This document shows, in pieces, positions 1 through 64,000 of a DNA stretch of 64,000 nt. Origin of the DNA: Eledone cirrhosa (lineage: Eukaryota). The position numbers and the translations under genes were made by a program. The DNA lies in the NCBI GenBank assembly GCA_964016885.1, contig CAXHJY010000739.1, forward strand, positions 69,780 through 133,779. The letters run 5' to 3'. Numbering within the stretch: position 1 is the first letter of the stretch; each line of letters begins with the position of its first letter. Below the pieces are notes generated by a model. The model had not been told where the DNA came from. It saw only the letters and a program-made list of their open reading frames with translations, and did no database searches.

Positions 1-1997
1 CCCTCAACGTCTCCAGTTTGTGCAGTAATGGCTCAAGAGTCAATACGTACAAGAGGGACGAGAGAGGACATCCTTGGTGGACCGAGCGCATGATGTTGAA
101 CGGTTCCGAAAGGTGACCGTTCACTCTCACCACAGAGCAGATGTCGCTGTGCATGGCAGCTATCCAGCCTCTGAAGATGGGCCCAAAGCCAGCCGCCCTC
201 AGGACTGTCGCCAGATAACGGTGGTCGACCCTATCAAAAGCTTTCGACTGATCTAAATTGATCAAGGACCTACCCGTGCCAGGTTCCCTAGCTACCCTCT
301 CCACGATGTATTGCATGAGGTGGAGGTTGTCATGGATGGATCTGTCTGGAATGGCTCATGTCTGCACGTCTCCCATCAGACCACCAACAACAAGCACCAA
401 CCTTTTTGCTAGCACCTTGGCCAAAATCTTGAACTCTGTGTTTAGCAGAGTTATGGGCCTGAAATTATCTATGTTAACCCCCTTGTTCGGATCCTTTCTC
501 AGCAGAGCCACTGCTCCTCAGCTCACAGACCTGGAAATTCTCCTGTTCTGTTGCCAGTTGCAGTAGACGTCCGCCAAGAGGCCTCCGAACAAGTCTGGCA
601 TCTGTACGTAAAGTTCATAGGGCACACCATCCAAACCAGGTGATTTACCCCTTGTGCAGCCAGTCATTGCCTCCCTTACTTCAGCGGCTGTTATCGGCTT
701 TTCGCAACACTCCGCCTCAGTGGCCGAGAGCCGCGGCAGTCTGTTGAGGTAGGCACTAAAGTCCATCCCTCGATCTGGCCCGCCGCTGCTCCCCGAACAG
801 CTGAGCGAAGTGTCGCTGAAAAGCTTCACACATTTGCCCGGGATCGAGTAGCATGCGCCCGTCGTGGTCCACCAAAGACCGGATCGTGGCTTTGTTGCCA
901 CGACGCGCCTCCGCCACTTGGGCCCATTGAATGGCTTTCGTCCCCTCGTGTCTGAGAGCACGCACCCTAGCTCTGACAATGCAGCCTTCGTGCTTTGCAT
1001 TGAAGAATTGGTCAAGGGCCAATTTTGCTGCAAGTACGTTGGTCACGGTGCCTTTACTAACCGCCTCGTCTAATTTTCTAACTAGTTCTCCCTCTGCTCT
1101 ATTTTTCTCTATTGCTAAAGCCTTATTAAACCTAATGGACTCTATTCTAATCGCTCTTTTCAGAGCAAACCACCATTTGTTGTTGACGATGGACCCCGTC
1201 AACACCCGCTTAACTAATTCGCTAATCCGGTCTCTGTAGGCCTTGCACGCTGTTAATGACGTGTTTAGTCCCTGTCTATGAAGCCTATCTAATTCAACCT
1301 CACAGATCACGAATTTGTGGTCCGTGTAGTCGACTATTTTGAAATGTGGGCAGCCTATGCTAGACCTATCTATTTCCCTATAAAATACTCTATCTAGATA
1401 TGATTGGGATGACCCGATGCGGTTTATCCATGTCCCCATTGGCACATTCGGGAAATCCAGACGGTACCTGTCAGACAGTTGAAACCGTCTGAGCAGGTTT
1501 GCGAGGCTTTTACACCCTTCTCCCCTATCCGCTAATCCCACACAGTCCCAGCGTGCATCTAAGATCCTGTTCCAGTCGCCCACTAACACTAAAGAGTGGG
1601 ACGTTCCAAGAAAGGTCTCCAGACACCGGAAGAAATCAGGCCACCCTGCTCCTATCGGGGCATAGACGGCCACTAGCCTGAAAGCTTGCCTGTCTCCGCT
1701 AGTCACGTTCAGCACCACCAACTTACCTTCTGGGTCCAGGAAGATGGCCCGTATGGCGAGATCCAAACCTCTCCGAAAAAGTACAGCAACTCCTCCCCCC
1801 GATCCAGGACGGCTGGGAGATGTGTACACATCGTAGCCGCAGAAGATCAGCGCGAAGGTTCATGCTTCAGAGATTCTGGTCTCGCTGATGGCCACCACAT
1901 TTATGTTTAGTGACCTGAGGTCGTTGAGCAAGTGGCCCTGCTTCCGTGACAACCTCAGGCCACGCGCATTTATGCTACCTACTCTGAGTGAGGTCAT
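1..1997 (-). pseudogene. ORF2 (APE endonuclease + reverse transcriptase) of the L1/Tx1 element, with stops and frameshifts
   Basis: ATG at 1997 gives MTSLRVGSINARGL. Downstream motifs: SET, GGGVAVLF, VAVYAP, GDWN, SYLDRV, TDHK, KSPGLDG, DQSKAFDRVDH, QGCPLSSLLYVL. Confidence 0.92.
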
Positions 1998-2019
1998 GTT
2001 GAAAAGGAGTGGAAAAAGA

Positions 2020-4185
2020 TGGTAAAGACCATTTACCTCACTTCTCGTAGAGGAAGGATGGTTATTCCATCCTTCTCACTGCTTGTGGCCTCCTCCGGAA
2101 GGATGTCCTTATAAATCCTCCTGGAGAGTGTTTGTTGGAAGTCTCCGATGTCCTTGGGGAATTTTTGTTTTAGTGTCGTGAACGTTTTCTGTGAGATGCG
2201 AGTGATTTGTATGTGTGGAGGTGGTGTGAATTTTTGGGGTGTTGTGTAGTCTTTTTCTGTGATGCTGGTGTTGTGTTGGATGTAGTGTAATAATTGGTTG
2301 TTGTTCAAATTTAATTGTTTCTACTTTAGGTACAAGGCCAGCAATTACCCAGTGCATTATTGGTACTTTATTTTATCGACCCCGTAAGGATGAAAGGCAA
2401 AGTCAACCTCGGCGGGATTTGAACTCAGATCGTAAAGGGACGTAACTATGCTGGAAAGCATGGCGTCCGACCCTCTACCGATACTGCCAATCCACCGCGG
2501 TTGTTGTTCAAATTTAATGCTGTGTATTGTGTATCGTTTTGGTTGTTTTGTTTTGTTTGCGTTTGTTGTGGGTTTTATTTCTGTTTCGCATTTTGGTGAT
2601 TTTTGTGGTGTTGGTGATGGTGGTGTTGGCGTTAATGATGGTGATGGTGTTGGTGTTTGTGGTGATGGGGCTGGTGATGCTGGTGTGGGTGGTGGGATAG
2701 CTGTCTTAACTTTTTTGTTTGTTTGCTTATTTGTTCCCCCCAGCAATTTGTTTTTCGAGGGCGAAGGAAGAGGATTTTTTTCTTTTTTGGGTTCTTTTTT
2801 CCTGATACAGTTTCCCACTCCTCATCATCACAATCTGGCTCCAGTTGTGATAGGTCGGGGAGTGGAAAATCCTCCACAGGCGATGGTTTTGGTTGTGGCC
2901 TGGTGGATGGTGGAGGCGCTGGTGCTAATTCTGGCGCGATGGGTGGTGATGGTGTTGGTTTTGCTACTGTTGCTGCTACAGTTGCTTCTGTTGTTGCTGC
3001 TACAGTTGTTGCTGCCATTTCTGCTGCTGGTGGTTTTGATGGTTGAGTCACTGGGGTGGGTAGGAGAAGTGGCCTCAACTTTTTAGTCTGAGGGCAGAAA
3101 GCCTTTAGGTGGGTTCCTTCAGCATAAACGACACACCTAGGCCTTCTACCCTCAATGATTACGGTGAAGTGGCTGCCGTCATTGAGGTCTATCACCTCTG
3201 GAATTTCCTCAATGTTTTTTTGGTCCACTTGGATCAGGAGCTCCATCCCAGATCCGGACCAGTTCTCCTGCTTTTCTTTTGTTACCTTAATTATTTTCGT
3301 GTTGACCTCGATGCCGGCGAGGACGGCAGCCATTAGCCAGGGAATTTCGATGGCTGGCGGAACGTGGGTCACCCTGATCTTCACGAATCTCTGACCACAA
3401 TAGCTTGGGACGAGTCATCATTTCTTAATGGGGCCATGGAGTGCTCTCTGGCTTCCTTCCTGTGGTGTTCCAAAGAACATGTCCACGGTTCCATACTTCT
3501 GCCCACGTCTGATGTGGGTTTTTTTCGCCCACACATGTCCCAAAGCTTTTTGTATTTGGGACTCGGATGCCCGTTCCACTCGGCGTGATTTTGTGTTTAT
3601 CGTCCGATATGACACGGTGCAAAGGCGCCGATGCTCTATTTTATTAGATGGGGCGGGGTGTGAGGCTGACCCTGTACCCATCTTTTTTTACCATTCGCTT
3701 GGCTTCATTTAATTCATCCTGGTTTACCTCGATTGTTTCGCTTTTCTTGGCTGCTTTGGCAAACGACACATTTTGTTTTGCGCTGGTGTTGATGTTGTTG
3801 TCGTTATTCTCATTGTTGTTGTTGCTGTTGTTGTTATTATTATTTTTGTTATTGTTATTTTTAGTTTCAGTTGTGGTGGAGGTGGTCGTGGTGTCAGTGG
3901 TGTTCGGTGTGGAAGAGTCGATTCTGGGTGAATCCATTTCGATGTCACGAGATAATTTATTTTTTTTGTTTCTGTTGTCGCTGTGGTGGTGGTGGGGGTG
4001 GCGGCTTTAACACCTGCAGTTATTGGTAATGGCAGGAAATGAATGTCTGCATGTGATAAATTTAAATTATTGCCACTGCTTATATTTTTAGTGTTGGCAA
4101 GCGTAGTAATGTCTTGAATGGTGGTGGTGGGAGGTGCTGGTTTGTTAGGAAGGCTGTCAGCTTTGTGTGGCTGAGAGCCGTCCAT
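2020..4185 (-). pseudogene. ORF1 (gag-like) of the L1/Tx1 element, frameshifted and interrupted by a SINE
   Basis: ORF pieces 3724-4197, 3644-3937, 3418-3681 and 2632-3384. They contain Asn/Thr-rich and Pro-rich low-complexity tracts, KIRVTHVPPAI, and a degenerate zinc knuckle (IEGRRPRCVVYAEGTHLKAFCP). Confidence 0.75.
2316..2498 (-). mobile_element. Full-length tRNA-derived SINE with a 20-bp target-site duplication
   Basis: Minus strand reads A-box-like TGGCAGTATCGG, B-box-like GAGTTCAAATCC, body GACTTTGCCTTTCATCCTTACGGGGTCGATAAAATAAAGTACC. Flanked by GGTTGTTGTTCAAATTTAAT at 2296-2315 and 2499-2518. Confidence 0.9.
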
Positions 4186-22374: not shown

Positions 22375-24666
22375 TCAGATGGAAGGTTTGTGTTTATCAA
22401 CCCCACTAGAGCCAACACTGTTGCCACTTGCACCTCTCTTGCTCTGCTTCGGCACAACATTGCAGGAGAATGCACTCTGTGTGTTTGAGCTGTTGTTAGG
22501 CCCCCACCCTGGTGAACCCCACTGGGATGACATCGGGAAACCCCTTGGCCAGCTACCGTAGTTACCACCCCACGACTGCATCATCTGGTGGTGTGTGTAT
22601 GACGAAGGGATCGAGAGCGGTTGCAGTCGTAAGGCTGCAGCAGCTGCAGCAGATGTATGGTGCGGGGAGATGGAATGGGGAGGGTGTGGGGACTGAGTGG
22701 GAGGTTGAAAACTCCTGTTGTGTGAGTGCGACTCATCTGCTGAGGTATTGTGTTGGTGCTGAGATGAATGAGGGAGGGGTTGATGTGGGGAGTGTGGTGA
22801 TGGAGAAGACGACGGTGTATGCTGTTGTTGCTGGTGATGAGGTGAGGGTGAGTGATGAGAGTGGTGCAAGGGGGGAGAGGTGGCTGTCTGAGGTGGATGG
22901 ATGCTAACTCTGGCTGAAGATTTTCCCTTCCCTGAGAGAGGAGCTTGCTGACACAGTCCACTTGTGGAAGCAGACCCAGTGCTATCAGGAGTATTAGAAC
23001 CACTACCTCCATTAGTATTGTTATTATTATTGTTGTTGTTGTTGTCATTAGTGTTGTTGGGTGTATTAGTTGTGTTGTTAGGAATTTGTTTGTTTTGGCT
23101 CAATGCTTTAGCACTAGCGGCCTGAGCACAGGCATGGCTTTGTAGGTTGGCTCTTTGAGCAAACCCCTTTTTACAAATGTCACACGTATAAGGTTTTTGA
23201 ATGAGTGGCGGTGGCACTACAGGTATCCGAATACATTCATGATGATTTAAGTTAGACCTCTGACTAAATGACTTCTTGCACACACCACACGTATATGGCT
23301 TAATGCCAGTGTGTGTGCGCTCATGGATAGTAAGGTTAGCTTTTTGAGGAAATGTTTTTTCACAGTAAGAGCATTGATAGGGCTTCAGCCCTGTATGAGT
23401 GCGCTCATGTATATCCAAGTTAGCTCGCTGAGAGAATGACTTGTCACACACAGAACATCTATACGGCTTCAGGCCTGTGTGTACACGTTCGTGAATGTTT
23501 AAATTTGCACGCTGGCTGAAACCTTTCAGACATATTGCACATGTGAATGGCTTTTCTCCTGTATGAGTGCGCTCGTGTATGTCCAGATTTGCTCGCTGTG
23601 GAAATGCCTTACGGCAGTATGAACACTGAAACGGTTTCTCACCAGAGTGCGTGCGTTCATGTATGTCCAAGTTAGCACGTTGGCTGAATGACTTGGTACA
23701 TACTGAACATGCGAACGGTTTCTCCCCAGTATGTATACGTTCATGGATGTGGAGGTTTGCCCGGAGAGAAAACGCCTTGTCGCAGACAGAGCACTTATAA
23801 GGTTTAACACCTGTGTGGACACGTTCATGAATATTCAAATTAGCTCGTTGGCTAAAACTTTTTTTGCAAATACCACAGACGAACGGCTTTTCTCCAGTGT
23901 GTGTACGTTCGTGGATATTCAGATTGGCTCTCTGAGGAAATGATTTGGGACAGAATGAACACTGAAACGGCTTTATCCCCGTATGTGTGCGTTCGTGGAT
24001 ATCCAGATTTGCACGCTGGCTGAAGCTTTTTTGGCAAAAACTGCAGCTAAATGGTTTCTCTCCAGTGTGGGTTCTTTCGTGAATCTTCATGTTTGCCTTC
24101 AGAGAAAATGATTTTGGACAATAGCTACATTTGAATGGTTTCTCTCCGGTGTGAGACCTTTCATGTATGTGTAGATTAGCACGCTGCGCAAATGCTTTCC
24201 TACAGAATGTACAGTTGAAGGTCTTCTCCGTTGTGCTGGCTGAAATAGTCCCAGAACCTCGGCCACGACCCCTCCCTCCACCTCGACCCACCCCCTGGTT
24301 AGGGTGGGAGTTCATATGGGGTAAGAGGTGGGAGTGGCCGAGTGAGTGAGAATTGGAATGAATCGCATCTGCATTGGGTACATTGAGGCAGTTCTTGAAG
24401 TTGCTGCCATTTTTGCCAGATTCCGGAAACGGCTTCCAGCACATACTGCCGTTGTCGGGCAACACCTGCTTGTGGTCAGTTGAATGCTGAGAGTGTGGCG
24501 ACATTGGGCCCTGAGGTGTTGTTGAGGTAGGGGGATGTGTTGAAGGTGCTGATCCATTGTCATTGCAGCCATTCAAGTGATGATGGTCAATCTGAGAGAA
24601 TCCTCGGTTGCAGATATCATAGTCGAAAGGTCTATCCACTGGGTACATGGACTGTACCGGGTACAT
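22375..24666 (-). CDS. C2H2 zinc-finger protein, 763 aa: 11 tandem C2H2 fingers plus 2 C2HC-type fingers, RGG motif, Asn/His/Pro-rich C-terminus; single coding exon
   Basis: Uninterrupted ORF with CxxC..F.....L..H...H repeats and TGEKP-type linkers. GRGGGRGRGRG lies upstream of the fingers. Confidence 0.95.
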   Translation of the reverse strand: MYPVQSMYPVDRPFDYDICNRGFSQIDHHHLNGCNDNGSAPSTHPPTSTTPQGPMSPHSQHSTDHKQVLPDNGSMCWKPFPESGKNGSNFKNCLNVPNADAIHSNSHSLGHSHLLPHMNSHPNQGVGRGGGRGRGRGSGTISASTTEKTFNCTFCRKAFAQRANLHIHERSHTGEKPFKCSYCPKSFSLKANMKIHERTHTGEKPFSCSFCQKSFSQRANLDIHERTHTGIKPFQCSFCPKSFPQRANLNIHERTHTGEKPFVCGICKKSFSQRANLNIHERVHTGVKPYKCSVCDKAFSLRANLHIHERIHTGEKPFACSVCTKSFSQRANLDIHERTHSGEKPFQCSYCRKAFPQRANLDIHERTHTGEKPFTCAICLKGFSQRANLNIHERVHTGLKPYRCSVCDKSFSQRANLDIHERTHTGLKPYQCSYCEKTFPQKANLTIHERTHTGIKPYTCGVCKKSFSQRSNLNHHECIRIPVVPPPLIQKPYTCDICKKGFAQRANLQSHACAQAASAKALSQNKQIPNNTTNTPNNTNDNNNNNNNNNTNGGSGSNTPDSTGSASTSGLCQQAPLSGKGKSSARVSIHPPQTATSPPLHHSHHSPSPHHQQQQHTPSSSPSPHSPHQPLPHSSQHQHNTSADESHSHNRSFQPPTQSPHPPHSISPHHTSAAAAAALRLQPLSIPSSYTHHQMMQSWGGNYGSWPRGFPMSSQWGSPGWGPNNSSNTQSAFSCNVVPKQSKRGASGNSVGSSGVDKHKPSI

Positions 24667-24836
24667 TTTTGCCCTTCAAGTAACAGAAAAAGGAGAGAAC
24701 ATTTAGGCTACATCTAATCCATTTGGATCACAGATCTTCCATAGAGTGAAGGATTATCTTAAATCCCCTCCCTCAAACTCTATTCAGCAGTAACTCACAG
24801 ATTATTGTGTTCTTTGGTGTTCTTTCCTCACGTCTT

Positions 24837-41044: not shown

Positions 41045-48391
<7,347 letters not shown>

Positions 48392-48600
48392 ATATAAGTA
48401 TGTACACGTACATACATATATGTATACCGACGTACAGTAGTATGTATATATATATATATACATACATGCACACATATATACATGCACGTATGGATTCACC
48501 GAACATTTATTATAATGCTCGGTGTGTTTGTAAACAAACATCCCGTATTAAGCCGTAGTGTCTAGCAACCACCGTTGCTCGTTTGTTCAACACTGACAAA

Positions 48601-48656
48601 GGAACGCTGTACTAGTTTCAAGCTTGTTCAGCTATCGTCAGCAACGTATACCTTCC
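48601..48656 (-). ncRNA. Type I hammerhead ribozyme (representative of 4 minus-strand copies at ~48600, 49025, 49450, 49875)
   Basis: Reverse complement of the motif above: GGAACGCTGTACTAGTTTCAAGCTTGTT(C)AGCTATCGTCAGCAACGTATACCTTCC. Confidence 0.8.
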
Positions 48657-50313
48657 TGCCAGATTGTTGAACGTATATACTTACCTTATGCATATTAACG
48701 GCTGAGTAGCCCAATATGCATATCGAGTGGGTTAATCGGCCGGGTGCACCGAAAACGATAAACGGAAAAAATGAAACGATATTTCATTTCCCACTCTTAG
48801 TACGGTCGTTACTTAAATATAAGTATGTACACGTACATACATATATGTATACCGACGTACAGTAGTATGTATATATATATATATACATACATGCACACAT
48901 ATATACATGCACGTATGGATTCACCGAACATTTATTATAATGCTCGGTGTGTTTGTAAACAAACATCCCGTATTAAGCCGTAGTGTCTAGCAACCACCGT
49001 TGCTCGTTTGTTCAACACTGACAAAGGAACGCTGTACTAGTTTCAAGCTTGTTAGCTATCGTCAGCAACGTATACCTTCCTGCCAGATTGTTGAACGTAT
49101 ATACTTACCTTATGCATATTAACGGCTGAGTAGCCCAATATGCATATCGAGTGGGTTAATCGGCCGGGTGCACCGAAAACGATAAACGGAAAAAATGAAA
49201 CGATATTTCATTTCCCACTCTTAGTACGGCTGTTACTTAAATATAAGTATGTACACGTACATACATATATGTATACCGACGTACAGTAGTATGTATATAT
49301 ATATATATACATACATGCACACATATATACATGCACGTATGGATTCACCGAACATTTATTATAATGCTCGGTTGTGTTTGTAAACAAACATCCGTATTAA
49401 GCCGTAGTGTCTAGCAACCACCGTTGCTCGTTTGTTCAACACTGACCAAAGGAACGCTGTACTAGTTTCAAGCTTGTTAGCTATCGTCAGCACGTATACC
49501 TTCCTGCCAGATTGTTGAACGTATATACTTACCTTATGCATATTAACGGCTGAGTAGCCCAATATGCATATCGAGTGGGTTAATCGGCCGGGTGCACCGA
49601 AAACGATTAAACGGAAAAAATGAAACGATATTTCATTTCCCACTCTTAGTACGGCTGTTACTTAAATATAAGTATGTACACGTACATACATATATGTATA
49701 CCGACGTACAGTAGTATGTATATATATATATATACATACATGCACACATATATACATGCACGTATGGATTCACCGAACATTTATTATAATGCTCGGTGTG
49801 TTTGTAAACAAACATCCCGTATTAAGCCGTAGTGTCTAGCAACCACCGTTGCTCGTTTGTTCAACACTGACAAAGGAACGCTGTACTAGTTTCAAGCTTG
49901 TTAGCTATCGTCAGCAACGTATACCTTCCTGCCAGATTGTTGAACGTATATACTTACCTTATGCATATTAACGGCTGGTTGCTAGACACTACGGCTTAAT
50001 ACGGGATGTTTGTTTACAAACACACCGAGCATTATAATAAATGTTCGGTGAATCCATACGTGCATGTATATATGTGTGCATGTATGTATATATATATATA
50101 TACATACTACTGTACGTCGGTATACATATATGTATGTACGTGTACATACTTATATTTAAGTAACAGCCGTACTAAGAGTGGGAAATGAAATATCGTTTCA
50201 TTTTTTCGTTTATCGTTTTCGGTGCACCCGGCCGATTACCCACTCGATATGCATATTGGGCTACTCAGCCGTTAATATGCATAAGGTAAGTATATACGTT
50301 CAACAATCTGGCA

Positions 50314-50368
50314 GGAAGGTATACGTTGCTGACGATAGCTAACAAGCTTGAAACTAGTACAGCGTTCC
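50314..50368 (+). ncRNA. Type I hammerhead ribozyme (representative; 12 plus-strand copies every ~424 bp up to ~55035)
   Basis: Stem I CGUUG (50324-28)/CAGCG (50360-64) extended by GGAA/UUCC across a bulge; core CUGACGA (50329-35); stem II AGCU-aaca-AGCU; GAAA (50350-53); stem III AC-ua-GU; predicted cleavage after GUA at 50359. Confidence 0.85.
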
Positions 50369-53300
50369 TTTGTCAGTGTTGAACAAACGAGCAACGTGGT
50401 TGCTAGACACTACGGCTTAATACGGGATGTTTGTTTACAAACACACCGAGCATTATAATAAATGTTCGGTGAATCCATACGTGCATGTATATATGTGTGC
50501 ATGTATGTATATATATATATATACATACTACTGTACGTCGGTATACATATATGTATGTACGTGTACATACTTATATTTAAGTAACAGCCGTACTAAGAGT
50601 GGGAAATGAAATATCGTTTCATTTTTTCCGTTTATCGTTTTCGGTGCACCCGGCCGATTAACCCACTCGATATGCATATTGGGCTACTCAGCCGTTAATA
50701 TGCATAAGGTAAGTATATACGTTCAACAATCTGGCAGGAAGGTATACGTTGCTGACGATAGCTAACAAGCTTGAAACTAGTACAGCGTTCCTTTGTCAGT
50801 GTTGAACAAACGAGCAACGGTGGTTGCTAGACACTACGGCTTAATACGGGATGTTTGTTTACAAACACACCGAGCATTATAATAAATGTTCGGTGAATCC
50901 ATACGTGCATGTATATATGTGTGCATGTATGTATATATATATATATACATACTACTGTACGTCGGTATACATATATGTATGTACGTGTACATACTTATAT
51001 TTAAGTAACAGCCGTACTAAGAGTGGGAAATGAAATATCGTTTCATTTTTTCCGTTTATCGTTTTCGGTGCACCCGGCCGATTAACCCACTCGATATGCA
51101 TATTGGGCTACTCAGCCGTTAATATGCATAAGGTAAGTATATACGTTCAACAATCTGGCAGGAAGGTATACGTTGCTGACGATAGCTAACAAGCTTGAAA
51201 CTAGTACAGCGTTCCTTTGTCAGTGTTGAACAAACGAGCAACGGTGGTTGCTAGACACTACGGCTTAATACGGGATGTTTGTTTACAAACACACCGAGCA
51301 TTATAATAAATGTTCGGTGAATCCATACGTGCATGTATATATGTGTGCATGTATGTATATATATATATATACATACTACTGTACGTCGGTATACATATAT
51401 GTATGTACGTGTACATACTTATATTTAAGTAACAGCCGTACTAAGAGTGGGAAATGAAATATCGTTTCATTTTTTCCGTTTATCGTTTTCGGTGCACCCG
51501 GCCGATTAACCCACTCGATATGCATATTGGGCTACTCAGCCGTTAATATGCATAAGGTAAGTATATACGTTCAACAATCTGGCAGGAAGGTATACGTTGC
51601 TGACGATAGCTAACAAGCTTGAAACTAGTACAGCGTTCCTTTGTCAGTGGTTGAACAAACGAGCAACGGGTGGTTGCTAGACACTACGGCTTAATACGGG
51701 ATGTTTGTTTACAAACACACCGAGCATTATAATAAATGTTCGGTGAATCCATACGTGCATGTATATATGTGTGCATGTATGTATATATATATATATACAT
51801 ACTACTGTACGTCGGTATACATATATGTATGTACGTGTACATACTTATATTTAAGTAACAGCCGTACTAAGAGTGGGAAATGAAATATCGTTTCATTTTT
51901 TCCGTTTATCGTTTTCGGTGCACCCGGCCGATTAACCCACTCGATATGCATATTGGGCTACTCAGCCGTTAATATCGCATAAGGTAAGTATATACGTTCA
52001 ACAATCTGGCAGGAAGGTATACGTTGCTGACGATAGCTAACAAGCTTGAAACTAGTACAGCGTTCCTTTGTCAGTGTTGAACAAACGAGCAACGGTGGTT
52101 GCTAGACACTACGGCTTAATACGGGATGTTTGTTTACAAACACACCGAGCATTATAATAAATGTTCGGTGAATCCATACGTGCATGTATATATGTGTGCA
52201 TGTATGTATATATATATATATACATACTACTGTACGTCGGTATACATATATGTAGTACGTGTACATACTTATATTTAAGTAACAGCCGTACTAAGAGTGG
52301 GAAATGAAATATCGTTTCATTTTTTCCGTTTATCGTTTTCCGGTGCACCGGCCGATTAACCCACTCGATATGCATATTGGGCTACTCAGCCGTTAATATG
52401 CATAAGGTAAGTATATACGTTCAACAATCTGGCAGGAAGGTATACGTTGCTGACGATAGCTAACAAGCTTGAAACTAGTACAGCGTTCCTTTGTCAGTGT
52501 TGAACAAACGAGCAACGGTGGTTGCTAGACACTACGGCTTAATACGGGATGTTTGTTTACAAACACACCGAGCATTATAATAAATGTTCGGTGAATCCAT
52601 ACGTGCATGTATATATGTGTGCATGTATGTATATATATATATATACATACTACTGTACGTCGGTATACATATATGTATGTACGTGTACATACTTATATTT
52701 AAGTAACAGCCGTACTAAGAGTGGGAAATGAAATATCGTTTCATTTTTTCCGTTTATCGTTTTCGGTGCACCCCGGCCGATTAACCCACTCGATATGCAT
52801 ATTGGGCTACTCAGCCGTTAATATGCATAAGGTAAGTATATACGTTCAACAATCTGGCAGGAAGGTATACGTTGCTGACGATAGCTAACAAGCTTGAAAC
52901 TAGTACAGCGTTCCTTTGTCAGTGTTGAACAAACGAGCAACGGTGGTTGCTAGACACTACGGCTTAATACGGGATGTTTGTTTACAAACACACCGAGCAT
53001 TATAATAAATGTTCGGTGAATCCATACGTGCATGTATATATGTGTGCATGTATGTATATATATATATATACATACTACTGTACGTCGGTATACATATATG
53101 TATGTACGTGTACATACTTATATTTAAGTAACAGCCGTACTAAGAGTGGGAAATGAATATCGTTTCATTTTTTTCCGTTTATCGTTTTCGGTGCACCCGG
53201 CCGATTAACCCACTCGATATGCATATTGGGCTACTCAGCCGTTAATATGCATAAGGTAAGTATATACGTTCAACAATCTGGCAGGAAGGTATACGTTGCT

Positions 53301-55299
53301 GACGATAGCTAACAAGCTTGAAACTAGTACAGCGTTCCTTTGTCAGTGTTGAACAAACGAGCAACGGTGGTTGCTAGACACTACGGCTTAATACGGGATG
53401 TTTGTTTACAAACACACCGAGCATTATAATAAATGTTCGGTGAATCCATACGTGCATGTATATATGTGTGCATGTATGTATATATATATATATACATACT
53501 ACTGTACGTCGGTATACATATATGTATGTACGTGTACATACTTATATTTAAGTAACAGCCGTACTAAGAGTGGGAAATGAAATATCGTTTCATTTTTTCC
53601 GTTTATCGTTTTCGGGTGCACCCGGCCGATTAACCCACTCGATATGCATATTGGGCTACTCAGCCGTTAATATGCATAAGGTAAGTATATACGTTCAACA
53701 ATCTGGCAGGAAGGTATACGTTGCTGACGATAGCTAACAAGCTTGAAACTAGTACAGCGTTCCTTTGTCAGTGTTGAACAAACGAGCAAACGGTGGTTGC
53801 TAGACACTACGGCTTAATACGGGATGTTTGTTTACAAACACACCGAGCATTATAATAAATGTTCGGTGAATCCATACGGGCATGTATATATGTGTGCATG
53901 TATGTATATATATATATATACATACTACTGTACGTCGGTATACATATATGTATGTACGTGTACATACTTATATTTAAGTAACAGCCGTACTAAGAGTGGG
54001 AAACTGAAATATCGTTTCATTTTTTCCGTTTATCGTTTTCGGTGCACCCGGCCGATTAACCCCACTCGATATGCATATTGGGCTACTCAGCCGTTAATAT
54101 GCATAAGGTAAGTATATCGTTCAACAATCTGGCAGGAAGGTATACGTTGCTGACGATAGCTTAACAAGCTTGAAACTAGTACAGCGTTCCTTTGTCAGTG
54201 TTGAACAAACGAGCAACGGTGGTTGCTAGGACACTACGGCTTAATACGGGATGTTTGTTTACAAACACACCGAGCATTATAATAAATGTTCGGTGATACG
54301 TGCATGTATATATGTGTGCATGTATGTATATATATATATATACATACTACTGTACGTCGGTATACATATATGTATGTACGTGTACATACTTATATTTAAG
54401 TAACAGCCGTACTAAGAGTGGGAAATGAAATATCGTTTCATTTTTTCCGTTTATCGTTTTCGGTGCACCCGGCCGATTAACCCACTCGATATGCATATTG
54501 GGCTACTCAGCCGTTAATATGCATAAGGTAAGTATATACGTTCAACAATCTGGCAGGAAGGTATACGTTGCTGACGATAGCTAACAAGCTTGAAACTAGT
54601 ACAGCGTTCCTTTGTCAGTGTTGAACAAACGAGCAACGGTGGTTGCTAGACACTACGGCTTAATACGGGATGTTTGTTTACAAACACACCGAGCATTATA
54701 ATAAATGTTCGGTGAATCCATACGTGCATGTATATATGTGTGCATGTATGTATATATATATATATACATACTACTGTACGTCGGTATACATATATGTATG
54801 TACGTGTACATACTTATATTTAAGTAACAGCCGTACTAAGAGTGGGAAATGAAATATCGTTTCATTTTTTCCGTTTATCGTTTTCGGTGCACCCGGCCGA
54901 TTAACCCACTCGATATGCATATTGGGCTACTCAGCCGTTAATATGCATAAGGTAAGTATATACGTTCAACAATCTGGCAGGAAGGTATACGTTGCTGACG
55001 ATAGCTAACAAGCTTGAAACTAGTACAGCGTTCCTTTGTCAGTGTTGAACAAACGAGCAACGGTGGTTGCTAGACACTACGGCTTAATACGGGATGTTTG
55101 TTTACAAACACACCGAGCATTATAATAAATGTTCGGTGAATCCATACGTGCATGTATATATGTGTGCATGTATGTATATATATATATATACATACTACTG
55201 TACGTCGGTATACATATATGTATGTACGTGTACATACTTATATTTAAGTAACAGCCGTACTAAGAGTGGGAAATGAAATATCGTTTCATTTTTTCCGTT

Positions 55300-55330
<31 letters not shown>

Positions 55331-55359
55331 ATATATATATATATATATGTATATGTATA

Positions 55360-57776
55360 TTTACTCTTTTACTCTTTTACCTGTTTCAGCCATCCGGCTG
55401 AGGCCATGCTGGGGCACCGCCCTTGTTGCTACACATTTTATCTCCAGCCTGTATAGGTTGGCCACTGGTGTAGGAGGGAGTTTGTTGCTGCTGCCCTTAG
55501 GTTTCCCTCGTGTCTTGCTGTGGGCTCATCCGGGATCCTGGATAACAAGGTGTCGAGATGTTTCTTAAAGACATCCACCTCCACGTCATGCAAGTCTCGC
55601 AGATGCCTCGGCAGCCTGTTGAAGAGTTGAGGGCCCTTGAATCCCAGGCTATTGCAATACCTGCTCCTTATTCTAGATGTGGAAGACGGGACCTTTGGCA
55701 CCACACAGTGACGTCCTGTTCGACGGTTGGTCCAGCTCCCAATGCCAAAGTTTGGTGCTAGTCCCTCCAGGATTTTCCACATGTAGATCACTGCGTATCT
55801 CTCCCGTCTTCGCTCCAAGGAGTAGAGGTTCAGTTCCTTCAGCCTCTCCCAGTAGCTTGTCTCCCTCATCTTGGCAATCCTCTTGGTGTAGCTTCGCTGG
55901 ATTGCCTCAAGCTCTGTGGTTAGTTTGACACTATGGGGTGACCACAGCTGGGAGCAGTAGTCCAGGCGGCTTAGGACAAAAGTCCTCCACAGTGTCAACA
56001 TGGTGTCTCGATCTCTTGTAAGGAAAGTCCTCAAGATCCAGCCAGCGAATCGTCTACATGCTGTCGCCACCTTCATGATGTGTGAAGAAAAAGATGCATC
56101 ATCGCTCATGTCTATGCCCAGGTCTCGTATCGATTTTGACACGGGGATATCGGTCCCTCCTGGTCCTGTGTAGCTGTGTTCCGCTATATTTGTGTTTGTG
56201 TTTGCAGGTTTGTATTGTAGGGCTTGGAATTTGCCAGCATTAAACTGCATGTTGTTTTCTTCCGCCCATCTGTATATGGCATCCAGATCCTGCTGTAAGA
56301 GGGCAGCGTCAGCCGGGTTATTGATTGCCTGTGCTACCTTAGTGTCATCAGCATAGCTAGTGAGGGATGTTGTTGCATGCACCACAGAGGGCATGTCCGA
56401 GAGAGCCACCAAAAACAGTAGTGGTCCCAGGACTGTCCCCTGAGGCACCCCACTTGTTATCGGTGTTTCCCTCGAGAGGGCCCCATTTGCTGCGACTGCC
56501 TGGCTTCTGTCCCTCAGGAAGCCATGCAGCCACTCACCTACTTTTCCAGTTATGCCGAGTCCGTGTAGTTTGTGACATATCATTCCGTGGTCGACCTTGT
56601 CAAAGGCCTTCGCAAAGTCAAGATATATCACGTCTACATGTGAGCTGTCTAGTAGCTGTCTCAGTACCCAGTCGTAGTGATGTAGCAGCTGTGTAAGGCA
56701 GCTTCTTCCTGGGCGGAAGCCATGTTGCGTGCTAGTCAGGCGGTCATTTTCTTCGAGGAAAGTGATTAGTTTCTTTCTGACGACTCGCTCCATGACCTTA
56801 CTGATATGCGACGTCAGGGAGACTGGCCTATAGTTCTTGGCCTCCGCTCTACTACCTCCTTTATGGATAGGGCATATTGTGCCTTCTTTCAGCTCCCTGG
56901 GTAGTACACCGCTAGCCAAGGAGCTTCTGAAGAGCATCTTCAGTGGAGTTGCTAAGGCCCGCTTACATATTTTTAGGAGAACTGCTGGGAATCCATCAGG
57001 TCCAGCAGCCGAGTCTGTTCTAATTTCATCAATGGCGTACACCACATCCTCCTCCGTTATGTCTATGTGGTTGATGGTTGCCATTTCTTGATGTAGTGTT
57101 GTGGCATCAAAGAACTCCTCTGGCTTCGTTATTTGCATGTGCCTCAGTGGACATGTGAAGACACTTTTGTACTGTTCGTTCAGTATTTCACATATCTCTT
57201 GGGGATTTTCGGTTAATGAACCGTCCGTGTGGAAGAGTGGTCCAATCTTGCAGTGTACTGAGGCAGTTTCTTTTGCAAATTTAAAGAAGGCCTTAGGGTT
57301 TGTTTTAATGTTTTCTATGGCCCTGTTCTCTTTCCTTGCCCTCTCATTCTCATGTGAAAGCTTGAGTGCAATCTCGGTGTCAAGTAGTGCACGTTTCAAA
57401 TAGGATTCCTTCTTGTTTTGGTTTTGTTGACTATTCAACTGGTTTGAGAGTTTAGTTCTACGTCTCATAAGGATTTTCCTATCTCTGGGAATAAGATTTT
57501 TGTGTCTGTTTGCCTCTTTCTCCGGGACACACTTTTTGCATATGGTGTGTATCGTTGTCATGAAGTGTTGAAATTGTGTGTTAGTGTCTTGTGTGGCGAT
57601 GTTTGCACTCCATGTTTGCTTCCGGATTTCACTCTTAATCTTCTTCCAGTCAGCCCCGTAGAAGTTAAGGCTGGATAGCGTCCCGGAGCTTCTTGGTGGT
57701 TTTGTCTCTGTTGGTTCTCTTGGACCACATATCATTAGCTCTACCAAGTTATGATCCGAGAGAATTGTTGTATTGT
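55360..57776 (-). mobile_element. CR1-clade LINE, 5'-truncated, RT reading frame intact
   Basis: Open frame from SDHNLV (end of APE) through [48 protein letters not shown] and YADDTK to the stop at 55438. Ends in a (GAGTAAAA)n tail, with (TA)n on both sides. Confidence 0.95.
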
Positions 57777-58428: not shown

Positions 58429-59308
58429 GTCGTTTCTGAATTTGTTTAGCAAGATTCTTTATCTGAAATCGTGTGTTGAAACCGATATTGTTATACTTTG
58501 GGAGGGTCATGTTGCCAATAAGAAACACACGCACCAGTTGCTTTCACTTCAATTTAATTTAATATATATTTATAAATTTACAAATTTATAAATTTCTGGT
58601 TGGTTGGTTGGTTCCACAACCAGATAGTTGTTTATATATATATATAGTCATAGTTCTTTCGTCACACACTCATAGAAATAAAAATAGAATCCACACACAA
58701 GAAAGACGCAATGTTTAGGCAAATTACAGAGGCAGTAAGCATAAAAGAATTAAAACCAAAATTAAATAGAAAATATGAGTGGAACAGCAACATCACAACT
58801 TACAATTAAGGACAAAATGAAAACACACACACACATAGAACAAACAACTTACAATTGAAAACACACACAAAATGAAAACACACACAAGACAAAATGAAAA
58901 CACACACACACATAGAACAAACAACCAACCAACAATAAATAAATAAATAAACAAACAAATATAAATAGAAAAATAGAAAAATGAACACAAACACACACAG
59001 ACACCCGGATGTGGCGCATGCGCAAACTGAGCACGCAACCCACACACAAACAAAATGGCGTAGGATAGAAGAAAGGAAAGGCACAGAAACGAAGAAAGAA
59101 ATCCCCAGTCACTGAAGAGGTCACAGAGTGTGTGACGAAAGAACTATGACTATATATATATATAAACAACTATCTGGTTGTGGAACCAACCAACCAGAAA
59201 TTTATAAATTTGTAAATTTATAAATATATATTAAATTAAATTGAAGTGAAAGCAACTGGTGCGTGTGTTTCTTATTGGCAACATGACCCTCCCAAAGTAT
59301 AACAATAT
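58429..59308 (+). mobile_element. Penelope-like pseudo-LTR remnant with an inverted partial copy at its 5' side
   Basis: 58485-58671 is an almost perfect inverted copy of 59126-59308. It contains a minimal hammerhead followed by a putative ORF start ([20 protein letters not shown] in the longer left arm). Flanked by (TA)n. Confidence 0.75.
59107..59151 (+). ncRNA. Minimal type I hammerhead ribozyme (Penelope-type)
   Basis: AGUCA-CUGAAGA-g-GUCAC-agagugu-GUGAC-GAAA-G-aa-CUA^UGACU: stem I AGUCA/UGACU, 5-6 bp stem II, 2-bp stem III, predicted cut after 59146. Confidence 0.8.
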
Positions 59309-62136
<2,828 letters not shown>

Positions 62137-64000
62137 AAAAACTTTGAAATGTTTTGGCCAGTATTGGCCCAGGCCATGTCTAACTTAATAGCACCACCTG
62201 GCGAAGTCTTTCAATTCAGGATTTGGGCACCATGGCCCATTCGAGAAGAGAATTACTGTTTGCGGAGACATATCCGGGTGTGGGTGGTTTGTCCGGGATT
62301 ACTTGGAGGAATTTGTCCAAAGACTTCTTGAATCTTGTGTGGTCAGTTTCTGTTTTGACGTGTCCTGGTGTGATGTTGAAGAGAGCAGGGCCGATTGAGG
62401 TGAAATAATTGTGCCGTATTGTTGTTATGAGTTGCGATTTAGATTTTTGAATGGGACGGATAGCACGGGGCCCAAGCCTTGGGTGTATCTTGAAGGCGAT
62501 GCCAACATCATTTGGGCAGTGATGATGGAACATTTTCCACATCATGCAGATAATATAACGCTCACGGCGACGTTGGAGTGAGTAAAGTTTCAGGTTTTCC
62601 AATCGACCCCAGTAGTCAAGGTCTGACATGCCATCTATCTTTTTCGTGATTGCCCTTTGAGGAGCTTCAAGTTTCATGATACTTTGTTTCGTGTGGGGAG
62701 ACCACAGTGGACAACAGTATTCAAGGTGTGGTCGGGCGAAAGTAGAGAAGAGAAGGATAATGGTGCGGGAATCTCTCGACTGGAAGGTTCTGAGGATCCA
62801 GGAACACATTCTGCGGGCCATGTCAACTTTGCTGCTTATATGCGTGGTCCAGCTTATGTTGCTGTCCACGGTTACTCCCAAGTCTCTGATGTTGTTAGAT
62901 GCCACGAGAGTTTCCCCGGAGGGAGGGAGTACGGGAGTTTCAGAGCATCCTCTTTTCCAAAGTGGATCAGTTCGAATTTGTCTTCGTTCAGTAACATGTT
63001 GTTCTTTTCTGCCCATTGGGTAACAGCCAGTAGGTCTGACTGAAGGCTTATCCGGTCATCCACGCCATTGATGACCTTTTGGAGCTTGGAATCATCAGCG
63101 AAAATTTTAATGTTGCTGTGTTTGATGATGTCAGTGATGTCATTAATATAGATGATGAAGAGAAGTGGGCCCAACACAGTGCCTTGTGGGACTCCACTAC
63201 TGACTTTGGCTGGGCTTGATTTGACTCCCTCAACTACAACATGTTGGGTTCTGTTTGACAGGAAGCTCTTGATCCACTGCAGCAGCTTTCCAGTGACACC
63301 AATATTGGACAGCTTTCTCAGTAGAATGTTATGATCAACCTGTCAAAGGCCTTGCTGAAATCAAGGTAGATAACATCAGTGTTGGAACCCTCTCCCAAGG
63401 CTCTCAAAATGTCATCAAAGTGATGCAGTAGTTGCGTCAGGCAATCCCTTCCATTACGGAATCCATGCTGGTTGGAGTTCAGCATATTGTTACTCTCAAG
63501 GAAGTGGGTCATTCGCGATCTCACCACTCGCTCAAATACCTTAATGATATGAGAGGTGAGTGAGATTGGACGGTAATTCACGGCAAGGGATTTGTTTCCC
63601 TTTTTGAAAACTGGACAACAGACTGGGATAGAAGGTTTTCTGGCACATATCCAGCATCCAGTGAGTTCCGCCACAGATTGGCAAGAGGAGAAGCAAGTTG
63701 GTGTTGACACGCCTTCAAGACACAAGCAGGGAACCTATCGGGACCTACTGCTGAATTATGTTTGATTTCCTTTATTGCCGCCAAGACATCAGGGGCGCCA
63801 AACGTTATGTCCGATAAGGTGTAATGGGGAGTAACATCGCCGATACAGCCCAGATCGGCCATATCAGGATTGCTGAAAACAGAGCAGTATTGTTTCTGCA
63901 GTATCTCACCCATGGTTTTAGCATTGTCTTGAAGAGTGCCATTTTCATCAATTAGAGGGCCAACAGTAGAGCCAGTGATTTTGTGTTTTTTTTGCAAATG
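62137..64000 (-). mobile_element. Second CR1-clade LINE (different family), 3' part, frameshifted, runs off the right edge
   Basis: AVGPDRFP, NYRPISLTSH, QHGFRNGRDCL, YLDFSKAFD, LGPLLF, FADDSK, RPHLEYCCPLWSP and LYSLQRRRERY across several frames. The 3' end abuts (TA)n. Confidence 0.93.

What the first reader, a model, noticed from the sequence alone, without database searches (positions are those of the whole stretch)
50324..50364. Atypical hammerhead geometry: palindromic ACUAGU stem III and a U.U pair at the base of stem II
Seen: stem III is only 2 bp with a 2-nt loop, but the hexamer ACUAGU is a perfect palindrome. Stem II is closed by U.U rather than the usual G-C, and the cleavage triplet is GUA. 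These features are fixed across the copies I read. Known: hammerheads with unstable palindromic stem III can cleave as double-hammerhead dimers. Inference: cleavage should need two adjacent units, so multimeric transcripts would be processed while a monomer circle stays stable. The U.U pair may tune down or abolish activity.
Basis: partly seen in the sequence, partly recalled or inferred. Interest (0 to 1): 0.72.

Follow-up and report, generated by a model that had tools for sequence, protein, structure and literature searches.

The report
Dimer-type hammerhead in a retrozyme repeat
This is a hammerhead self-cutting RNA motif inside a 424-base repeat family with about 28,000 such motifs in this animal genome; its self-complementary third stem and U·U mismatch are real but already described in salamander repeats, where such motifs cut better in pairs, as this one likely does.

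Summary
In detail: type I hammerhead, U·U at 10.1/11.1, ACUAGU helix III, GUA triplet, in 16 of 16 window copies. It is the ribozyme of a 424-bp non-LTR retrozyme; 28,138 related motifs occur genome-wide.

The geometry is not atypical. Axolotl HHR_Amex2 has the same U·U, cuts 22% as monomer and much better as dimer (PMC7229834). GUA occurs in active natural hammerheads.

Added here: the palindrome covaries across families (CUAG, CGCG, CAUG), and no helix III change is shared by all units of an array (0 of 37 sites). The double hammerhead is predicted 16–17 kcal/mol more stable than two closed monomers. U·U is not fixed: C·A, A-U and G-C versions also spread, so it likely tunes rather than abolishes cutting.

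Arrays are two-armed with Penelope-type fixed ends. The scan noted that layout and a similar U·U before on other DNA of this genome. Cleavage and expression are untested. Verdict: new member of a known kind, low interest.

The parts
50323..50366 (+). Type I hammerhead (first copy of the + arm): helix I 6 bp, core CUGACGA/GAAA, helix II with U·U at its base, loop UAACAA, unpaired U1.7
50336..50349 (+). Helix II; U10.1 (50336) opposite U11.1 (50349)
   Evidence: variants
50353..50358 (+). Palindromic helix III ACUAGU (A15.1-U16.1 closing CUAG); predicted 6-bp duplex between two copies, -4.8 kcal/mol
50359..50360 (+). Predicted cleavage site after GUA (between 50359 and 50360)
   Evidence: hammerhead consensus; cleavage not measured
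50300..50382 (+). Predicted long, internally looped extension of helix I
   Evidence: fold of 50300-50385
50783..51206 (+). One 424-nt unit from cleavage site to cleavage site, 38% GC, about 70% paired
   Evidence: fold z-score -7.2 for a permuted unit
49970..55302 (+). Right arm of the array: 12.6 units, 12 hammerheads; outer end at unit position about 277
48392..49977 (-). Left, inverted arm: 3.7 units, 4 hammerheads; outer end at unit position about 217-221
41046..48396 (.). (TA)-rich microsatellite flanking the left arm
55300..55360 (.). (TA)n microsatellite flanking the right arm

Best explanation
This is the type I hammerhead motif of a 424-bp tandem non-coding repeat (a non-LTR retrozyme) that likely cuts poorly as a single motif and better when two like copies in one transcript swap helix I strands and pair their ACUAGU hexamers into a 6-bp helix III. 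Shown: motif, array, copy number, covariation, two-armed layout with two fixed ends in (TA)n. Predicted by folding: the double hammerhead lies within 2 kcal/mol of the best fold of a dimer, and in the monomer circle the UAG of the palindrome pairs with core C3-U4-G5 and holds it off. Inferred: multimeric transcripts are cut to unit length, ligated by a host ligase into circles, and copied by a Penelope-like reverse transcriptase from both ends of a break in (TA)n. The U·U pair is inferred to be a tolerated, probably rate-lowering variant, not an off switch.
For: Published tests on the closest described motifs: axolotl Amex1 (1 bp + palindromic tetraloop) 6% and Amex2 (U·U at base of helix II) 22% monomer cleavage, much more efficient as dimers. 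Folding of the natural window dimer: double hammerhead -181.0, two closed monomers -164.0, both helices III open -174.8, unconstrained -182.9 kcal/mol; double form within 2 kcal/mol of the best fold in 5 of 6 natural dimers tried. Circle: P(C3-G16.2) 0.88-0.92 in the window's family and two G-C/CUAG families, P(A15.1-U16.1) about 0. Palindrome kept through double changes between families: CUAG, CGCG, CAUG; only 196 motifs of this geometry (control 19) lack both C15.2 and G16.2, against 28,138 + 19,263 matches. At 133 sites with two or more units, variants shared by all units occur at N7 (33 of 58 sites with such a variant), loop 2 position 4 (79 of 88), N17 (9 of 15), 10.1/11.1 (11 of 30), but helix III 0 of 37, helix II 0 of 29, core 2 of 53. 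Head-to-head arm pairs with both ends seen: 40 of 50 have one end at each of two fixed sites, none has the same site twice, as for Penelope-like 'tails'.
Against: No cleavage or ligation was measured. Without tertiary energy the dimer ensemble gives the two-copy helix III only about 1%, and the local 25-bp helix I would have to exchange strands. Within the family, double changes of the inner palindrome are not enriched for new palindromes (2 of 18 sites). The shared variants mostly mark a few subfamilies, so independent events are few, and the sites were partly picked for mutants. Rare single variants behaved alike in the listed matches whether neutral (N7), core-breaking (G12) or at 11.1. One two-armed locus has a broken G12 in both arms (L390). 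In an anole Penelope element ribozyme mutants did not affect insertion in vitro; 8 of 9 Xenopus retrozyme dimers showed no cleavage. The circle lock is weak in CGCG families (0.02-0.15) and the C·A copy (0.21).
Confidence: 0.65

Rival explanations
1. The motif is competent as a monomer: loop 1-loop 2 contacts and the long looped helix I hold the core, and the palindrome only adds a little.
For: Newt and salamander motifs can cut as monomers when helix I has an internally looped extension (review passage), which is present here; loop 2 UAAnAA is invariant in 13-14 of 14 rows and U1.7 in at least 90%; coral and mussel retrozymes cut as monomers.
Against: Helix III here is the weakest published type plus a U·U; closing it costs about 5.4 kcal/mol per motif; self-complementarity is kept across three different tetramers.
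Confidence: 0.15
2. Cutting is marginal or protein-assisted, and the template for new arrays is mostly uncut multimeric transcript rather than a self-cut circle.
For: Arms run through the cleavage site up to 16 times; no arm begins at positions 1-4 after the site among 112 mapped 5' ends; dead-core and period-2/3 arrays exist; anole element uses unprocessed RNA in vitro.
Against: Core and helix III changes are not shared across arrays of three or more units (0 of 32 and 0 of 26 sites); young arrays are homogeneous with variants shared by all units, as a single circle would give, though a homogeneous source array would too; weak excess of 5' ends 5-17 nt past the site (15 observed, 7.6 expected, one of 14 bins).
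Confidence: 0.15
3. U·U abolishes activity and the family is a dead ribozyme carried along.
For: G10.1-C11.1 is described as highly conserved in canonical hammerheads; Rfam finds no hammerhead here even at E 10.
Against: Axolotl U·U motif cleaves; U·U and A-U versions of the 310-bp family both form young perfect arrays; core conserved between units that differ by about 17%.
Confidence: 0.05

Closest known systems
Axolotl retrozyme hammerheads HHR_Amex1 and HHR_Amex2 (Cervera and de la Pena 2020, PMC7229834; main text parts 1-4 of 6 read, figures and supplement not seen)
   Same: Type I motif in a short low-GC tandem unit; Amex1 has one pair capped by a palindromic tetraloop, Amex2 a U·U at the base of helix II; both cut better as dimers.
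   Different: Here both weakening features sit in one motif, in an animal whose unit is 424 bp (above the 170-400 nt reported); GUA triplet; activity and circles untested.
Canonical metazoan type I hammerheads with short palindromic helix III (Cervera and de la Pena 2014, PMC4209133; passages read)
   Same: Helix I 6 bp, helix II 4 positions, helix III 1-2 bp with a 2-4-nt palindromic loop; dimer cuts, monomer circle spared.
   Different: 10.1-11.1 is U·U instead of the conserved G-C.
Non-LTR retrozymes as non-autonomous Penelope-like elements (Li, Clavereau, Pollet, bioRxiv 10.64898/2026.07.22.740005, parts 1-3 of 5 read; Craig et al. PMC8557442 and Frangieh et al. PMC11167929, passages read)
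   Same: Tandem units with hammerhead; inverted 5'-truncated arm, one-sided tail, (TA)n targets, two internal start sites.
   Different: End offset here is about 56-59 nt rather than 30-40; no autonomous partner was identified here.

Membership tests
Type I hammerhead ribozyme | Core CUGANGA / GAAA / UH with helices II and III closed and helix I open | tested here: met
Type I hammerhead ribozyme | Helices supported by compensatory changes | tested here: met
   11 of 13 pairs change on both sides in 14 hand-picked representatives
Type I hammerhead ribozyme | G10.1-C11.1 pair | tested here: not met
   U·U; a known natural exception (HHR_Amex2)
Type I hammerhead ribozyme | Match to an Rfam hammerhead model | tested here: not met
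   no hit at gathering score or at E up to 10
Type I hammerhead ribozyme | Loop 1-loop 2 tertiary contact | tested here: inconclusive
   conserved loop 2 and U1.7; assignment of the contact is recalled, no structure computed
Type I hammerhead ribozyme | Self-cleavage at the NUH site | not testable with these tools
   needs in vitro assay
Dimer-type (double) hammerhead | Helix III of 1-2 bp with self-complementary loop | tested here: met
Dimer-type (double) hammerhead | Dimer cleaves faster than monomer | not testable with these tools
   only folding energies
Metazoan non-LTR retrozyme | Tandem units of 150-450 bp, each with a type I hammerhead, GC under 45-50% | tested here: met
   424 bp, 38% GC, 16 motifs
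Metazoan non-LTR retrozyme | Dispersed, multi-copy, non-coding | tested here: met
   arrays on many contigs at 99-100%; no ORF of 150 aa or more within the array apart from microsatellite frames at its left edge
Metazoan non-LTR retrozyme | Highly self-paired unit | tested here: met
   z -7.2
Metazoan non-LTR retrozyme | Expressed as linear and circular unit-length RNA | not testable with these tools
   needs reads or northern blot
Non-autonomous Penelope-like element | Inverted 5'-truncated arm, two fixed 3' ends, (TA)n target | tested here: met
Non-autonomous Penelope-like element | Sequence shared with the terminal repeat of an autonomous element | not tested
   no search for the partner was made

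The most novel reading that the evidence does not exclude
Helix III works as a like-with-like pairing check and the 10.1/11.1 mismatch as a repeatedly chosen brake: only neighbours with the same palindrome cut each other, so a mixed array yields multi-unit circles (L268 alternates CAUG and CUAG units, in phase in both arms), and families switch between U·U, C·A, A-U and G-C to set how much multimer survives for Penelope-type copying. The genome would then be a natural mutational scan of double-hammerhead catalysis.
Probability: 0.15. Interest if true: 0.55.

Novelty: new member of a known kind. Interest (0 to 1): 0.24.

Why it matters
The features themselves are ordinary for animal retrozyme hammerheads. 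The modest value is comparative: one genome holds tens of thousands of same-geometry motifs with four different 10.1/11.1 states and three palindromes, ready-made natural pairs (U·U versus A-U in otherwise identical 310-bp units) for measuring how this pair and dimer formation set the cutting rate, and for testing whether circles or multimers are the copied template.

Tried and rejected
Rfam: no match at gathering score in the whole window; at E up to 10 only AT-repeat look-alikes of miRNA models, rejected. Expression: no RNA holder listed; the two guessed RNA runs laid only on the TA-rich part at under 90%; no evidence either way. Cleavage footprint in 5' ends: 7 vs 2.4 expected in young arrays, 8 vs 5.2 in the body-picked set, ends at 5-17 not at 1, 14 bins compared; weak. 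Compensatory palindromes within the family: 5 of 23 matches, 2 of 18 sites; no enrichment. Clustering of rare variants: N7 purine 162, G12 changed 340, U11.1 changed 153 matches; first 100 of each mostly single, no class stood out. Period-2/3 arrays as proof of multi-unit circles: rejected as proof, since loci were picked for repeated mutants and DNA-level duplication explains them. A non-palindromic TACC motif lacks a good helix I in the 3 copies read and looks like a decayed motif inside another repeat. Palindrome as family code: CUAG is shared by the 424-bp and 467-470-bp families. (overlapping loci not merged) was replaced, which dropped 38 loci lying inside larger fetched arrays and merged 366 loci into 291 sites. 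Literature: searches found no paper on a U·U rate measurement or a cephalopod retrozyme; subscription papers are not covered, and the supplement of PMC7229834 could not be read and may list further invertebrate retrozymes. PMC544870 and PMC2837043 (passages) added little.

Full report
Observation. The 41 bases at 50324-50364 form a type I hammerhead: helix I arms ACGUUG/CAGCGU, core CUGACGA, U10.1, helix AGCU-AACA-AGCU, U11.1, GAA, ACUAGU, A17. All 16 copies in the window keep U·U, ACUAGU and GUA. Rfam does not detect the motif.

Setting. The motif recurs every 424 bp in two opposed arms, 3.7 units on the - strand (48392-49977) and 12.6 on the + strand (49970-55302), between (TA)-rich tracts. 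The unit is 38% GC and folds far better than shuffles (z -7.2). The 3.0-Gb genome holds many dispersed arrays at 99-100% identity and 28,138 motifs with this helix II (control 0). In 76 loci examined, 50 head-to-head arm pairs had both outer ends visible: 40 had one end at unit position 214-226 and the other at 262-278, none had the same site twice, 10 had some other end. An inverted truncated arm, a one-sided tail, (TA)n targets and two internal start sites are described for Penelope-like elements (passages of PMC8557442, and PMC11167929), and a 2026 preprint argues that animal retrozymes derive from them (parts 1-3 of 5). Earlier notes of this scan report the same layout on other DNA of this genome; I tested it independently.

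Are the features atypical? Their 2020 paper (parts 1-4 of 6) describes axolotl Amex1 (one pair plus palindromic tetraloop, 6% monomer cleavage in an hour) and Amex2 (two pairs plus tetraloop, U·U at the base of helix II, 22%), both much more efficient as dimers. GUA precedes the site in other natural hammerheads and is active in tests (passages of PMC1636495). The combination of Amex1's helix III with Amex2's U·U in one motif is not in the text I read; the supplement was unreadable.

Is the palindrome selected? Same-geometry motifs of other families number 19,263 (control 16): a 310/311-bp family with ACGCGU and a 467-470-bp family with ACUAGU; older copies have ACAUGU. Among 14 representatives that I picked, the inner pair is U-A in 6, A-U in 4, G-C in 4, always self-complementary. 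Only 196 motifs (control 19) lack both C15.2 and G16.2. At 133 merged sites with at least two units of the window's family (612 motifs), no helix III variant was shared by all units (0 of 37 sites that had one), nor any helix II variant (0 of 29); core variants were shared at 2 of 53, both two-unit sites picked for that mutation; N7 (33 of 58), loop 2 position 4 (79 of 88), N17 (9 of 15) and 10.1/11.1 (11 of 30) were often shared. These shared variants trace to few subfamilies, some arrays were seen only in part, and the sample was enriched for mutants. Against: inner double changes in the family make a new palindrome at only 2 of 18 sites, and rare neutral, core-breaking and 11.1 variants looked alike in the first 100 matches of each search.

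Is U·U fixed, and does it kill the ribozyme? It is present in 88% of the family with CUAG and GUA (24,749 of 28,138), but 1,344 motifs have another base at 10.1, mostly a C·A subfamily with GUU; sister families use G-C, A-U or U·U, and U·U and A-U versions of the 310-bp unit both form young perfect arrays. Single changes of U11.1 number 153 and did not found a subfamily. With the axolotl data this fits a tolerated, probably slower variant; whether the slowing is selected is not shown.

Folding. For the natural window dimer the strand-swapped double hammerhead scores -181.0 kcal/mol, two closed single motifs -164.0, open ones -174.8, the unconstrained fold -182.9; the ensemble probability of the two-copy helix III is about 1% without tertiary energy. 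The double form is within 2 kcal/mol of the best fold in 5 of 6 natural dimers; the exception is an old C·A copy. In the circular monomer the UAG of the palindrome pairs with C3-U4-G5 at 0.88-0.92 in three CUAG units, 0.21 in the C·A copy and 0.02-0.15 in CGCG units.

Mechanism. Shown: anatomy, copy number, covariation, array ends. Predicted: dimer-favoured fold and a locked circle. Inferred from the published class: transcription through the array, cutting mainly as double hammerheads, ligation to circles by a host ligase, copying by a Penelope-like enzyme from both ends of a break in (TA)n. Young arrays are homogeneous, with variants shared by all units, as a circle or a uniform multimer would give. 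A cleavage footprint is weak: 15 of 112 arm 5' ends lie 5-17 nt past the site against 7.6 expected, none at 1-4. Uncut templates are not excluded: L390 has a broken G12 in both arms, and 8 of 9 Xenopus dimers did not cleave in the preprint.

Verdict. New member of a known kind; interest 0.24. The boldest open reading, like-with-like pairing with a selected brake at 10.1/11.1, rests mainly on one alternating CAUG/CUAG array and gets 0.15.

Noticed in passing
L268 (G000:C1:319,893,994-319,896,433): Two-armed array of the same family alternating CAUG and CUAG helix III; 4 of 7 periodic variants are shared in phase with the other arm. The two hexamers are predicted not to pair with each other (+0.9 kcal/mol).
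   Followed up: partly
L117, L276, L277, L095: 310/311-bp retrozyme family with ACGCGU helix III; young perfect arrays exist with U·U and with A-U at 10.1/11.1.
   Followed up: partly
L275, L270, L093: 467-470-bp family, distantly related to the window's unit (68% over about 170-190 nt), with canonical G-C, the same ACUAGU and GUU or GUC.
   Followed up: partly
L240, L243, L250, L251: Old dispersed hammerheads with ACAUGU helix III.
   Followed up: partly
window 50600-51100, runs X4, X6, X7, X12: Low-depth contigs under other organism codes hold 100-300-nt pieces of the unit with 0-2 differences; relative, transfer or carry-over cannot be told.
   Followed up: no
L390, L392: Two-unit loci with the core G12 changed in both units, in L390 in both arms.
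   Followed up: partly
L034 about 2050-2300: Broken reverse-transcriptase-like frame with GLYRDD next to a retrozyme copy; its reading as Penelope-like is recalled, not tested.
   Followed up: no
window 55361-57775 (-) and 62216-63342 (-): LINE-like reverse transcriptase frames; the first is open for about 780 codons beside a (TA)n tract.
   Followed up: no
window about 58470-58640 and 59150-59305: Inverted repeat pair between (TA)n tracts.
   Followed up: no
window 22375-24675 (-): 766-codon open frame with tandem C2H2 zinc fingers.
   Followed up: no
window 518-3414 (-): Fragments of another LINE-like element (endonuclease- and RT-like frames).
   Followed up: no
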